This document shows positions 24,001 through 27,000 of a stretch of 64,000 bases of DNA, one piece after another. A program made the position numbers. Position 1 is the stretch's first letter; each line of letters opens with the position of its first letter. Origin of the DNA: a virus (lineage: Duplodnaviria > Heunggongvirae > Uroviricota > Caudoviricetes); IMG/VR virus record IMGVR_UViG_2939521961_000004. The stretch is one strand, 5' to 3'.

Positions 24001-27000
24001 GTGCGCCTGAGCGGACGAGAAACTTTTCGACAACTGGCAGATAAAACGGGTGTCAGTAAGACCGCTATTCGTCGTTTATCTGGTGCGCTTGCGGCCAGTG
24101 GTGATGTCTGGCTCTCTGGTTGCGGGGTATTTCCATCAGAGCAGGCGTATCGCGTATGGCGTAAGACACCGGAGAAGGCTGCTGACCCGACACTGATTCG
24201 AAAGTTACCTGACGGAGAAATACGTCGTTACAACAGACGGCAGAACATAATTTGTCGTGAGTGCCGCCAGAGCGAAGTTATGCAGCGTGTGCTGGCGTTC
24301 TATCGGGGAAACTTTCAGGAGGTGATGGAGTGAGGGTGAGAGTTTATATTGCCGGTCCAATGACGGGATATGAAAATTTCAACCGTGAGGCGTTTCACAA
24401 GGCGGAAGAGGAACTGAAACGGGAAGGGCATACCGTCTTAACTCCGGCAGTACTTCCGGACGGGCTGACACAGCCGCACTACATGGATATTTGCATGGCA
24501 ATGATTCGTTGTGTGGATGCGATTTACATGCTGAATGGCTGGCAGCGGTCAGCGGGCGCTAAGGCAGAGCTGGCACTGGCGGAGAAACTGGGGCATGCGG
24601 TGATTTATCAGGAGGTGGCTCGATGAGAGAGGTTAACTATGAGGCGCTTCGTGAGGCAGCACAAAACTATCAGTCGACGCTGGCGTGGTATCAGGCTACC
24701 CCGGACAGCCCAAATGCTGAACGGGATTGTGATGCGGCTCTTGCTGCGTTTAAGCGTCATATCCGTCATCGGGAAGCGGATATTATCGCTGGTTTGCTGG
24801 ATGGACTGGAAGAAGCAAAATCACAACTCAACGAGCAGCGTGAGTATTACGAAGGCGTTATCTCTGATGGGAGCAAGCGTATTGCTGAACTGGATGCGCG
24901 GGAAGTTCAATTACCGACTCGCTACGACCTTCGATATGGACACCCGATAAATGCAGATGAGCGACATGTCATGATACCTAAAGAAAATGGCAGTTGGCTT
25001 TACCTGATTGACCTAGAACACGCATTACGCGTCGCTGGCATTCGCATCAAAGGAGAGGAGCATGGAAATAAAACCAGAGGATGAGTTAAGCAATATCGTT
25101 TTATTTCCGGTAAAAGAGGATGACCCTCGTAATCAGGTTAATTTTCTTTATGAGCCATCGGAAAGACCATATTGTCATCACGCCTCTGTTCGGGTTGACG
25201 AAAAAGAGCGCCAGGTCCGCTGTAAAATCTGCGGTGCGGTTGTGGAGCCGTTTGACTGGATGCTCTCTGTGGCGAAAAGAGAAACCAGACTGGCAGATGA
25301 TGTAAGGCTATTGCGCCAGGAGGAACAGGAAAGGCGGAAAAATATAGAAAAGTTAATTCAGATTGAACGTAACGCGAAAGCGCGGATACGCAGGGCGACA
25401 AAATCCAGAACTGAATAAATAAATTTAGCGCTGTAAATAAAATCTAATCCTGAACTGGAGGTATATTTATGTTAAATACACAGAAAGCCATTAATGCGGA
25501 AAAATATAACGAGTGGGCAAGAAAATTCTCTGAGCAGATTTTTAAAATTACTGGCGATGAGAATGCGGCAAAAAATGAATTAGAACCGTGGACACCTGAA
25601 GGAAACGCACCAAATTATTGCTGGTGGGAGGTTGATCCGGTTGATGTTGCAAATGAAGCCATGAGTTACCACAACGATTAATGTCAGGAGGCCGCCCGAA
25701 AGGGCGGTAGTTAAATGCGAAAGTTTAAAATAATTATTGAAACGGGAATAGCCGGTGGAGATTTCGAGGATGAATTCGAAGTGGATGATGATGCGACGCC
25801 TGATGAAATACATGACGAAGCAAAAGATATTTTCTTTAACTACTGCAATTATTCATATCACGAAATAAAAGACGAAGAGGAAGAACAAAATGGCTGATTT
25901 TGGTTCAACTAAATACAGCGTCAGTTTTGAAGAATGGCATGAACTGTTAATGGAATATGCAGAGTTACGTGGTGGCAGTGCTGCTGATGCTGAAGCATGG
26001 CGTGATGATTATGAAGCAGGAAAAAATCCGGTCGAAGCATATTGTGATGAGTGGGGCGATGAATGAGCGAGATTGACTATCAGGCGCTGCGTGAAGCAGC
26101 AGAGAAAGCAACTAAAGGATGCTACATCGTAGGGCATACATCGGGCAATCAGCATGGGAATATAACAGGAGTTTTTGTTTGTCAAAAATGGAAAGGAGAG
26201 CCCGGTGGCGTAATTGCAGAATGTCATGTTAACTGCCTGGTTGAAACAGATGTTCAGGCTTATGCAAACGCTGAATTTATTGCTGCTTTTAATCCAAATG
26301 TTGCGCTGGCACTACTGGATGAACGGGAAGCCCAAAACAAACGAATTGCAGAGCTGAAAGCTAATCTTGTGGCGCTGGCGGCGGAGAATGCGGTAATAAA
26401 GTCTGCAATTCCAGAACCACGGGATATTGAGGACGACAATGACAATATGGATGACGTATCTCTTGCTGAAGATTTCGGGTTCAATCATGCAATAGAACGG
26501 ATGAGGAGACGGATTCCTGAAACTCCGGCCACCGACGCTTTCCTGGCTGAAGTACGGGCGGGGTTGTTTAACGAGCTTTGCGCGGCGTTTGTCAGGTACG
26601 AAAAAGTTGCAGGACTGGATGATAGCGATACAGTAACGCTTAAGGAAGCGACAGAAGCATTGCTGGATTGTGCGGAACAGCTTATCGCGCCTGAATAATT
26701 AAATTTAGTTAAAAATTTAATCCTTAACCGGAGGGATTTCTGCACCCTCAAAACATCAGGAGGCCGCCTGAAAGGGCGGTAAGAAATGACTACATTATTC
26801 AGAAAAGAATATCCGAGAAAAAGTAGAGCGACAGAATTTTTGTTTCTCATTATATTTATCGTGTTGATGATACCGATACCCCCGCTATTACTGGTCTGGT
26901 TTATCGTGAAAATAATTGAGCCAGTTATTGAATTGTATAACGACGTGGTGTGGGCGTCGTTCAGCACACTGCACAATAAAATTAATCCGTATAAGGAAAG

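What the first reader, a model, noticed from the sequence alone, without database searches (positions are those of the whole stretch)
25684..26781. Same 26-nt SD-plus-hairpin motif precedes two unrelated small genes
TCAGGAGGCCGCC(C/T)GAAAGGGCGGTA occurs at 25684 and 26756, each ending a few nucleotides before a start codon. The Shine-Dalgarno AGGAGG is immediately followed by a 6-bp stem with GAAA loop and there is no T-run, so it is not a classical terminator. It could be a translational control element, an RNase processing site or a protein-binding RNA hairpin.
Basis: seen in the sequence. Interest (0 to 1): 0.5.

Follow-up and report, generated by a model that had tools for sequence, protein, structure and literature searches.

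The report
Portable ribosome-site hairpin at prophage gene junctions
The repeated 26-base motif is real: it is a ribosome-binding sequence followed by a tight RNA hairpin that sits in front of several unrelated accessory genes in E. coli lambda-like prophages, most likely serving as a ready-made translation start and, because it is identical everywhere, as the seam where gene cassettes are swapped in and out.

Summary
TCAGGAGGCCGCC(C/T)GAAAGGGCGGTA occurs exactly twice in the window, at 25684-25709 and 26756-26781 on the + strand, where chance gives 0. Each copy ends 5 or 4 nt before the ATG of an unrelated small gene (DUF7167 and DUF4014). The region is the delayed-early accessory ("nin-like") part of a lambdoid prophage.

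The motif is widespread. It is in 2645 of 5426 complete E. coli genomes and at least 120 viral contigs. Among species-representative genomes it appears only as the same Escherichia/Shigella-type prophage element.

It always precedes a start codon by 6-11 nt, in front of at least five unrelated gene families and behind two different upstream contexts. Natural contigs carry the exact product of recombination between the two window copies, a 1072-bp cassette gained or lost.

Alleles of the same genes that lack the hairpin have an ordinary Shine-Dalgarno at the spacing that remains here once the hairpin is looped out.

Best reading (about 0.55): a split ribosome-binding site like T4 genes 38 and 25, which doubles as a 26-bp homology patch for cassette shuffling. 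It is not a terminator and matches no Rfam family.

No compensatory covariation was found, only a bias towards wobble-preserving changes. RNA-level function is therefore inferred, not shown. This is a new variant of known kinds, of moderate interest.

The parts
25684..25709 (+). Motif copy 1 (TCAGGAGGCCGCCCGAAAGGGCGGTA)
25686..25691 (+). Shine-Dalgarno AGGAGG of copy 1, 23 nt upstream of the ATG in linear distance
   Evidence: Duplex with the 16S 3' end is -9.7 kcal/mol.
25692..25707 (+). Hairpin of copy 1: 6 G-C pairs and a GAAA tetraloop, plus an optional G25691.U25708 pair
   Evidence: -15.5 kcal/mol, z = -3.5
25708..25717 (+). A/U-rich 7-nt spacer TAGTTAA and the ATG of the DUF7167 gene
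   Evidence: no SD in the spacer
25715..25897 (+). DUF7167 gene (60 aa), first gene of an overlapping, translationally coupled block (25715-25897, 25890-26066, 26063-26698)
25710..26755 (+). Interior of the 1072-bp cassette bounded by the two motif copies (DUF7167, a 58-aa ORF, an Ead/Ea22-like gene, linker). It is absent from contigs L120, L129 and L131, which keep both outer flanks and a single motif.
26756..26781 (+). Motif copy 2 (TCAGGAGGCCGCCTGAAAGGGCGGTA)
26758..26763 (+). Shine-Dalgarno AGGAGG of copy 2, 22 nt upstream of the ATG
26764..26779 (+). Hairpin of copy 2 (closing pair U.G)
   Evidence: -12.9 kcal/mol
26780..26788 (+). 6-nt spacer TAAGAA and the ATG of the DUF4014 gene
26786..27004 (+). 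DUF4014 gene (72 aa), first gene of the next coupled block (followed by HNH 27006-27371 and an ORF at 27368-27712)
25469..25681 (+). 70-aa ORF whose stop codon lies 2 nt before motif copy 1 (upstream 'context B')
26691..26755 (+). Upstream 'context A': a second conserved linker (CTGAATAA-TAAATTTAG...TAATCCTTAACCGGAGGG) plus CTGCACCCTCAAAACA. The linker also occurs at 25411-25468, where its GGAGG serves the 70-aa ORF.

Best explanation
The motif is a portable, start-associated translation-initiation cassette of E. coli/Shigella lambdoid prophages.

On the polycistronic early mRNA an exposed, perfect Shine-Dalgarno (AGGAGG) is followed directly by a very stable, self-contained hairpin: 6-7 bp, G-C rich, with a GNRA loop. 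When folded, the hairpin loops out 16 nt. The SD, 22-23 nt from the AUG in linear distance, is thereby brought to an effective 6-7 nt from it (6-9 nt in the other gene families). This is a 'split' or 'accommodated' ribosome-binding site of the kind shown experimentally for T4 genes 38 and 25.

It provides de novo 30S loading at the head of each block of overlapping, translationally coupled accessory genes. Because the structure is local, it probably keeps the SD and start codon free whatever the neighbouring sequence.

The same 26 bp stand in front of unrelated genes, so the motif also acts as a homology patch. Its length falls in the range quoted for the Red-beta minimal pairing segment. Cassettes are inserted, deleted and reassorted across it.

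Shown here: the motif, its association with start codons, its presence at mosaic junctions, and the natural recombinant. Inferred: that the hairpin forms in vivo, that the upstream SD is the one used, and that the effect on translation is positive.
For: 1. Significance and stability. The motif has two exact copies against 0 expected. The hairpin is in the minimum-free-energy structure in 33-, 61- and 111-nt contexts.

2. Tie to start codons. In more than 120 viral contigs the hairpin is followed at 6-11 nt by the start of at least five unrelated families: DUF7167, DUF4014, Ead/Ea22-like, a 173-aa family and a 158-aa family. The distance to the upstream stop codon varies from 11 to more than 60 nt.

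3. No other SD. The spacers (TAGTTAA, TAAGAA, TAATGAAAA, TAACAAATA) have no SD potential, +2.2 to -1.2 kcal/mol, against -9.7 for the upstream AGGAGG.

4. Hairpin-less alleles. DUF4014 without the hairpin, about 16 of 80 loci, has GGAG + AGTGAT + ATG/GTG, or the variant AAATGGGAGTGAT + ATG: 6 nt, the same as TAAGAA after the hairpin. Ea22-like genes without the hairpin have AAGGAA + 7 nt, against 8-9 nt after the hairpin.

5. Geometry. 22-23 nt reduced to 6-7 nt matches T4 gene 38 (22 to 5) and gene 25 (27 to 11), where destabilising the hairpin lowers translation (PMC3014915).

6. Position in the operon. In the window, the intergenic gaps among the genes from about 24.3 to 27.7 kb are the two motif sites and one linker; the other genes there overlap or abut.

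7. Allele spectrum. Among 29 alleles, most stem changes are C-to-U changes that keep G.U pairing, at four sites. In the six G-C stem pairs, 16 cells are one-sided compatible changes and 7 are unpaired; counting the outer G.U pair too, 23 and 10. Two of the four loop variants remain GNRA (GGAA, GAGA).

8. Junction role. Both upstream contexts combine with DUF4014, DUF7167 and Ea22-like genes. L120, L129 and L131 have 400 nt at 99% identity to the sequence upstream of copy 1 and 400 nt at 100% identity to the sequence downstream of copy 2, joined by one motif. The minimal pairing segment is quoted as 23-27 bp for Red-beta (PMC3945230).

9. A second example. An unrelated SD + 9-bp hairpin + 8 nt + ATG at 44341-44381 shows a G-C to A-U compensatory change in related phages.
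Against: - There is no compensatory (two-sided) change in the motif's stem. Shuffle controls are not exceeded, so structural selection is not demonstrated.
- The element is nearly invariant and confined to Escherichia/Shigella-type prophages. That fits recent common descent as well as it fits function.
- Some natural alleles break two pairs (L320 type in 4 loci, L294 type in 2) in front of Ea22-like genes that still match over at least 90 aa.
- If the hairpin melts, loop plus 3' arm (AAGGGCGGU) could pair with the anti-SD through a bulged duplex (-8.2 kcal/mol) at canonical spacing. A masking or repressing role for the hairpin therefore cannot be excluded.
- No expression, structure-probing or toeprint data were available.
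Confidence: 0.55

Rival explanations
1. A pure recombination linker or scar. The 26 bp are conserved only because cassettes are exchanged there or descend from one recent ancestor. The hairpin has no RNA-level role and the AGGAGG is just an ordinary SD that travelled along.
For: Sequence conservation is extreme and no compensatory changes occur. Taxonomic range is narrow. Contexts reassort and a deletion/insertion product exists. Breakpoints and IS1 insertions fall inside the motif in some contigs.
Against: An SD 22-23 nt from the AUG would be non-functional without the hairpin, yet no other SD exists in four of five families. Orientation and spacing to starts are constant. Stem changes are biased to wobble-preserving C-to-U. 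Two of four loop variants stay GNRA.
Confidence: 0.15
2. A repressive or standby RBS. The hairpin masks a cryptic SD-like 3' arm and sterically hinders the start. The upstream AGGAGG acts as a standby site, so these accessory genes are held at low level or depend on ribosomes terminating upstream to open the stem.
For: Loop plus 3' arm can pair with the anti-SD at -8.2 kcal/mol, 5-6 nt from the AUG. The last G of the SD is drawn into the stem. In context B the upstream stop codon lies 11 nt before the stem.
Against: A stem of -13 to -15 kcal/mol would almost never open spontaneously (inference from the general relation between RBS structure and expression). In context A no ORF terminates nearby: the nearest stop is 66 nt upstream. 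The bulged duplex is atypical.
Confidence: 0.12
3. An mRNA processing or stability element. The hairpin guides RNase E cleavage in the adjacent A/U-rich spacer, or protects the 5' or 3' end of processed cistron blocks.
For: A stable stem is followed by a single-stranded A/U-rich segment in a long polycistronic transcript.
Against: Position is fixed relative to the downstream start, not the upstream stop. At 6-7 bp the stem is too short for RNase III (established knowledge). No RNA-end data are available.
Confidence: 0.08
4. An operator for an RNA-binding protein, such as a phage translational repressor or an N-like protein binding a boxB-like GNRA hairpin, that co-regulates several cassettes.
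For: Stem and loop are highly conserved in sequence. The GAAA loop on a GCCC/GGGC stem resembles lambda boxB (recalled from memory, not tested).
Against: No boxA-like sequence is adjacent. The motif is present in a DicB/Qin-type prophage with no annotated N gene and also in Stx phages with different regulators. Wobble and loop variants are tolerated. There are only 1-2 copies per prophage.
Confidence: 0.06
5. A transcription terminator or attenuator.
For: A G-C rich hairpin lies in an intergenic gap.
Against: No U-run follows it on the + strand and the scan does not call it. It lies between an SD and its start codon.
Confidence: 0.03

Closest known systems
Split ('accommodated') ribosome-binding sites of phage T4 genes 38 and 25 (Nivinskas et al. 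1999; Malys and Nivinskas 2009; reviewed in PMC3014915)
   Same: The SD lies more than 20 nt from the AUG. A local hairpin of about 16 nt between them reduces the effective spacing to 5-11 nt; here 22-23 nt becomes 6-7 nt. The setting is a phage intercistronic junction.
   Different: The hairpin sequence is unrelated. Here the identical element is reused in front of at least five unrelated genes and sits at mosaic junctions. Function is not tested here, and no compensatory covariation was seen.
PeSL (promoter-early stem-loop) cassettes of T4-type phages RB49 and phi1 (Arbiol et al. 2010, PMC2839356)
   Same: A conserved composite intergenic motif with a stem-loop and SD flanks small non-essential ORFs in a hyperplastic region. 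Indels between close relatives are bounded by motif copies. The motif acts as the 'linker' of modular evolution.
   Different: PeSLs are about 100 bp, carry a sigma-70 promoter, and their stem-loops terminate transcription. This motif is 26 bp and has no promoter or terminator signal. Its hairpin lies between SD and AUG. Mini-circles were not examined.
Start-associated sequences (SAS/ESAS) of Cluster K mycobacteriophages (Pope et al. 2011, PMC3203893)
   Same: A short asymmetric repeat containing an SD core lies a few nt upstream of the starts of genes from different families. It occurs only in non-structural regions and in one orientation. Its function is presumed to be translational but is unproven.
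   Different: The sequence (GGGATAGGAGCCC) and host are different. SAS number 11-19 per genome (figure recalled, not retrieved), against 1-2 per prophage here. SAS has no hairpin between SD and start, and the ESAS inverted repeats lie upstream and do not support an RNA hairpin.
Short conserved flanking sequences proposed to mediate module exchange in lambdoid phages (Susskind and Botstein modular theory; Clark et al. 2001 on HK620, as cited in PMC2327257)
   Same: Short sequences shared by a subset of lambdoid phages at module borders allow homologous rather than illegitimate exchange.
   Different: I could not read Clark et al. 2001, so I do not know whether this particular motif is among theirs. 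A full-text search for the motif sequence found nothing.

Membership tests
Split / accommodated RBS (T4 gene 38/25 type) | SD too far from the start codon in linear sequence (more than about 15 nt) | tested here: met
   23 nt (copy 1) and 22 nt (copy 2) lie between AGGAGG and the ATG.
Split / accommodated RBS (T4 gene 38/25 type) | A stable local hairpin fills the interval and restores a functional effective spacing (5-11 nt) | tested here: met
   The predicted hairpins have -15.5 and -12.9 kcal/mol and leave 7 and 6 nt. The remaining spacing is 6-11 nt across families. This is a prediction only.
Split / accommodated RBS (T4 gene 38/25 type) | No alternative SD at canonical distance | tested here: inconclusive
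   The spacers have none. Loop plus 3' arm could form a bulged -8.2 kcal/mol duplex if unfolded. One family has its own GGAG.
Split / accommodated RBS (T4 gene 38/25 type) | Phylogenetic support for the structure | tested here: inconclusive
   94.9% of cells are paired. Changes are one-sided (wobble) only, with 0 compensatory pairs, and shuffle controls are not exceeded.
Split / accommodated RBS (T4 gene 38/25 type) | Stem-destabilising mutations lower translation and compensatory mutations restore it | not testable with these tools
   This needs reporter fusions or toeprinting.
PeSL-type mobile regulatory cassette / modular linker | The same intergenic motif flanks non-homologous accessory ORFs | tested here: met
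   At least five downstream families and two upstream contexts.
PeSL-type mobile regulatory cassette / modular linker | Indels between close relatives are bounded by motif copies | tested here: met
   L120, L129 and L131 are the window minus the 1072-bp cassette, with flanks 99-100% identical.
PeSL-type mobile regulatory cassette / modular linker | Contains a sigma-70 early promoter | tested here: not met
   No promoter-like site lies at either copy.
PeSL-type mobile regulatory cassette / modular linker | The stem-loop acts as a transcription terminator or attenuator | tested here: not met
   No U-run follows it and it is not called by the terminator scan on the + strand. Activity itself is not testable here.
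Start-associated sequences (Cluster K mycobacteriophages) | Consensus GGGATAGGAGCCC 3-7 nt before starts, many copies per genome | tested here: not met
   The sequence is different and there are 2 copies in the window. Only the concept is shared.
Intrinsic (Rho-independent) terminator | G-C hairpin immediately followed by a U-run | tested here: not met
   The hairpins are followed by UAGUUAAAUG and UAAGAAAUG.
nut site (boxA + boxB) | A boxA element upstream of a boxB hairpin near the start of an early operon, in a phage encoding N | tested here: not met
   There is no boxA-like sequence. The sites lie several kilobases into the operon, directly before start codons. The window prophage has no annotated N gene. 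Binding is not testable here.
Any Rfam family | Covariance-model match | tested here: not met
   There is no relevant hit at E up to 10 in 20000-32000.

The most novel reading that the evidence does not exclude
The SD-hairpin is the recognition site of a dedicated cassette-capture system in lambdoid phages, functionally like an integron attC site or a PeSL. A phage enzyme, such as the frequently adjacent HNH endonuclease or the Red-beta/RecT annealase acting on the extruded hairpin, would target the motif to excise and insert accessory-gene cassettes. The motif would at the same time supply a standardised, context-insulated RBS to whatever gene lands behind it.
Probability: 0.07. Interest if true: 0.75.

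Novelty: new variant of a known kind. Interest (0 to 1): 0.42.

Why it matters
If the split-site reading is right, this is a natural, reusable, structurally insulated ribosome-binding site carried by about half of sequenced E. coli genomes, sitting exactly where prophage accessory genes are gained and lost.

It would give a concrete, testable molecular handle on two old questions. The first is how shuffled phage genes stay expressed in new contexts. The second is whether lambdoid mosaic joints arise by homologous exchange at short conserved linkers rather than by illegitimate recombination. A 26-bp patch within the Red-beta minimal pairing length bears directly on that.

It would also extend the T4 gene 38/25 mechanism beyond T-even phages. 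The motif could serve as a marker of cassette borders in prophage annotation.

Tried and rejected
- Rfam scan of 20000-32000 at E up to 10: nothing relevant.
- Promoter and terminator scan: nothing at the motif on the + strand.
- Covariation test on 28 alleles: no two-sided changes, and controls are not exceeded.
- Species-representative genomes scanned for TCAGGAGG + any G/C 6-mer + GAAA + any G/C 6-mer + TA, to find family members with other stems. There were only two hits, both the same E. coli-type element: Shigella flexneri, and a Collinsella MAG contig that is probably contamination.
- K-12 Rac prophage checked as a possible experimental handle: no copy.
- Full-text literature search for the hairpin sequence: no paper. 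Searches for a lambdoid description of an SD-hairpin-start element found none.
- The Pas sRNA preprint that surfaced concerns late-region sRNAs and is irrelevant.
- One exact 22-mer match (L037) lies inside a long ORF that follows a 401-aa ORF, encoding ...QEAARKGG.... It is a coding coincidence, not an instance.
- A leader-peptide idea for context A (GGAGG + CTG...) was dropped. CTG is a poor start, and the upstream GGAGG is mutated to GGATGG in many loci.
- The boxB idea was rejected for lack of boxA and of an annotated N gene.
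Full report
**Observation**

The 26-nt sequence TCAGGAGGCCGCC(C/T)GAAAGGGCGGTA is present at 25684-25709 and 26756-26781 on the + strand. These are the only matches in the window at up to three mismatches, and none of 100 dinucleotide-preserving shuffles gave a match. An independent repeat search returns the same pair with the same borders.

Each copy consists of a perfect Shine-Dalgarno AGGAGG, then directly a stem of six G-C pairs (the closing pair is U.G in copy 2) capped by GAAA. An A/U-rich spacer of 7 nt (TAGTTAA) or 6 nt (TAAGAA) follows, then an ATG at 25715 or 26786.

ViennaRNA folds the hairpin in every context tried. It adds a G.U pair that uses the last G of the SD, and gives -15.5 and -12.9 kcal/mol.

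The two downstream proteins are unrelated: BLASTP finds no alignment, and Pfam assigns DUF7167 and DUF4014.

**Setting**

The window matches a lambdoid prophage of E. coli O26 and related strains at 100% identity. In that RefSeq annotation the genes lie in the rightward early operon, between replication gene P and RusA/Q, the position of lambda's nin region. In Stx2 phage ArgO145 the same genes lie in the leftward 'ea' region between the recombination genes and int.

Among the genes from about 24.3 to 27.7 kb, neighbours overlap or abut. The gaps there are a 50-nt linker before a 70-aa ORF (25469-25681), the 33-nt gap holding motif copy 1, and the 87-nt gap holding the same linker plus motif copy 2.

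The motif therefore stands at the head of two translationally coupled blocks: DUF7167 / 58-aa ORF / Ea22-like, and DUF4014 / HNH / ORF.

**Distribution**

A 35-nt query built around the motif hits 2645 of 5426 complete E. coli genomes at 4863 places, up to 9 per genome, almost all chromosomal.

Among one-genome-per-species representatives, a pattern that left the stem free to be any G/C sequence found only two records. Both are the same element in front of DUF7167: one in Shigella flexneri and one in a probably contaminated Collinsella MAG. The element is thus common but confined to Escherichia/Shigella prophages, and no relatives with different stems were found.

There is no relevant Rfam match and no promoter or terminator signal at the motif on the + strand. 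A full-text search for the hairpin sequence found no paper.

**What it is attached to**

Across the viral contigs the hairpin is followed at 6-11 nt by the start codon of at least five unrelated families:
- DUF7167, 7 nt;
- DUF4014, 6 nt;
- Ead/Ea22-like proteins, 8-9 nt;
- a 158-aa family, 9 nt;
- a 173-aa family, 11 nt, the only one with its own GGAG in the spacer.

Upstream there are two contexts. In one, the stop codon of the 70-aa ORF lies 2 nt before the motif. In the other, the conserved linker is followed by CTGCACCCTCARAACA. Both contexts combine with DUF4014, DUF7167 and Ea22-like genes. The distance to the downstream start is constrained while the distance to the upstream stop is not.

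One exact match (L037) lies inside a long ORF that follows a 401-aa ORF. It is a coding coincidence.

**Evidence for a split ribosome-binding site**

In the window the SD is 22-23 nt from the AUG, too far to work in linear form. The spacers have no anti-SD complementarity (+2.2 to -1.2 kcal/mol, against -9.7 for AGGAGG).

The comparison with alleles of the same genes that lack the hairpin is the most informative. About 16 of 80 DUF4014 loci, and phage PA28, have AAAGGAGAGTGAT or the variant AAATGGGAGTGAT followed by ATG or GTG. This is a conventional SD with 6 nt to the start, the same as the TAAGAA that follows the hairpin. Ea22-like genes without the motif have AAGGAA + 7 nt, against 8-9 nt after the hairpin. 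Looping out the hairpin therefore reproduces the spacing these genes use elsewhere.

The geometry matches T4 gene 38 (22 nt reduced to 5) and gene 25 (27 reduced to 11). In those genes, mutations that destabilise the intervening structure reduce translation initiation (PMC3014915).

A second, unrelated example lies in the same prophage at 44341-44381. GAGGAGG is followed by a 9-bp hairpin with a GCGA loop, 8 nt, and the ATG of a small ORF after the capsid gene. Related phages change its outer pair from G-C to A-U, a compensatory change.

**Limits of that evidence**

Twenty-nine alleles of the motif were collected from samples anchored on the downstream genes, so the sampling was unbiased for the motif itself. 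Most stem changes are C-to-U at four positions, which keep G.U pairing. Two of the four loop variants, GGAA and GAGA, remain GNRA; the other two, GGCA and UAAA, do not.

There is not a single two-sided compensatory change, and the shuffle controls are not exceeded. Two allele types, in 4 and 2 loci, break two pairs each. The alleles are related, so the wobble bias is suggestive only: 16 pair-keeping against 7 pair-breaking cells in the six G-C pairs.

If the stem were open, loop plus 3' arm (AAGGGCGGU) could form a bulged duplex with the anti-SD at canonical spacing. A repressive, masking role cannot be excluded.

**Evidence for a recombination joint**

The two window copies share only the 26 nt. 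Contigs L120, L129 and L131 have 400 nt at 99% identity to the sequence upstream of copy 1 and 400 nt at 100% identity to the sequence downstream of copy 2, joined by a single motif. This is exactly the product of an exchange between the copies, or the substrate into which the 1072-bp cassette was inserted. Thirteen further contigs show the same arrangement at 93-99% identity.

The length of the shared patch falls in the minimal efficient pairing segment quoted for Red-beta (23-27 bp) and below that quoted for RecA (31-34 bp) (PMC3945230). Some contigs have breakpoints or IS1 ends inside the hairpin.

This is the behaviour proposed for the 'linker' sequences of modular phage evolution and shown for PeSL cassettes in T4-type phages (PMC2839356; PMC2327257).

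**Comparison with known systems**

The element works like a T4-type split RBS, and it evolves like a PeSL or a start-associated sequence (PMC3203893). It is a member of none of these by sequence. It lacks the promoter and terminator that define PeSLs, and it lacks the SAS consensus. It fails the defining features of intrinsic terminators and nut sites.

I rate it a new variant of known kinds: a reused SD-hairpin start cassette at lambdoid mosaic junctions, apparently undescribed.

**Verdict**

The main addition is the junction role.

Confidence in the combined explanation is about 0.55. The principal rivals are a functionless linker (0.15) and a repressive or standby site (0.12). Interest is moderate (0.42).

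Noticed in passing
window 44341-44381: A second, non-homologous SD-hairpin-start arrangement. GAGGAGG is followed by a 9-bp stem with a GCGA loop, 8 nt, and the ATG of a small ORF just after the 645-aa protease/capsid gene. Phages YYZ-2008 and BP-4795 change the outer pair from G-C to A-U and a G.U pair to G-C, keeping the stem. It could equally be a stabiliser after the capsid gene.
   Followed up: partly
window 25411-25468 and 26691-26745: A second conserved intergenic linker (CTGAATAA-TAAATTTAG...TAATCCT-AAC-GGAGG), including the last codons of two different upstream genes. In the first copy its GGAGG serves the 70-aa ORF. In the second copy no start follows it, and the SD-hairpin motif comes 20 nt later.
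   Followed up: partly
viral contigs L346, L352, L354; phage Rac-SA53 (L125): IS1 ends are joined inside the hairpin loop or 3' arm (L346, L352) and at the SD/stem border (L354). In Rac-SA53 an IS1 lies about 30 nt downstream of the motif. This indicates repeated IS1 insertion into or next to the element.
   Followed up: no
window 2879-11020 versus 53672-63447: Two tail/tail-fibre regions are 93-97% identical and about 52 kb apart. The window therefore spans the end of one lambdoid prophage and most of a second, adjacent one. An integrase disrupted by an IS3-family element lies at about 13.3-15 kb.
   Followed up: partly
window 11124-11600 and 46131-46663: Near-perfect tandem repeats: 141 bp x 3.4 copies and 162 bp x 3.3 copies, at 97-98% identity. 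What they lie in was not checked.
   Followed up: no
window 25062-27712 versus ArgO145 (L001): The same block of accessory genes sits in the rightward nin-like region of this prophage but in the leftward ea region of Stx2 phage ArgO145. The cassettes therefore move between the two early operons.
   Followed up: partly
L037 11455-11476: The exact 22-mer AGGAGG + hairpin occurs inside a long ORF that follows a 401-aa ORF, reading ...QEAARKGG.... It is a coding coincidence and not an instance of the element.
   Followed up: yes
L370 (Collinsella sp. MAG scaffold, 3030 bp): An actinobacterial MAG contig carries the E. coli-type linker, motif and DUF7167 gene. This is most likely binning contamination.
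   Followed up: partly
window 27917-28479 (- strand): A RelE/ParE-ParD toxin-antitoxin pair is inserted on the opposite strand within the early-operon accessory region. The Ea22-like gene at 26063-26698 is annotated in RefSeq as a C-terminally truncated pseudogene.
   Followed up: no
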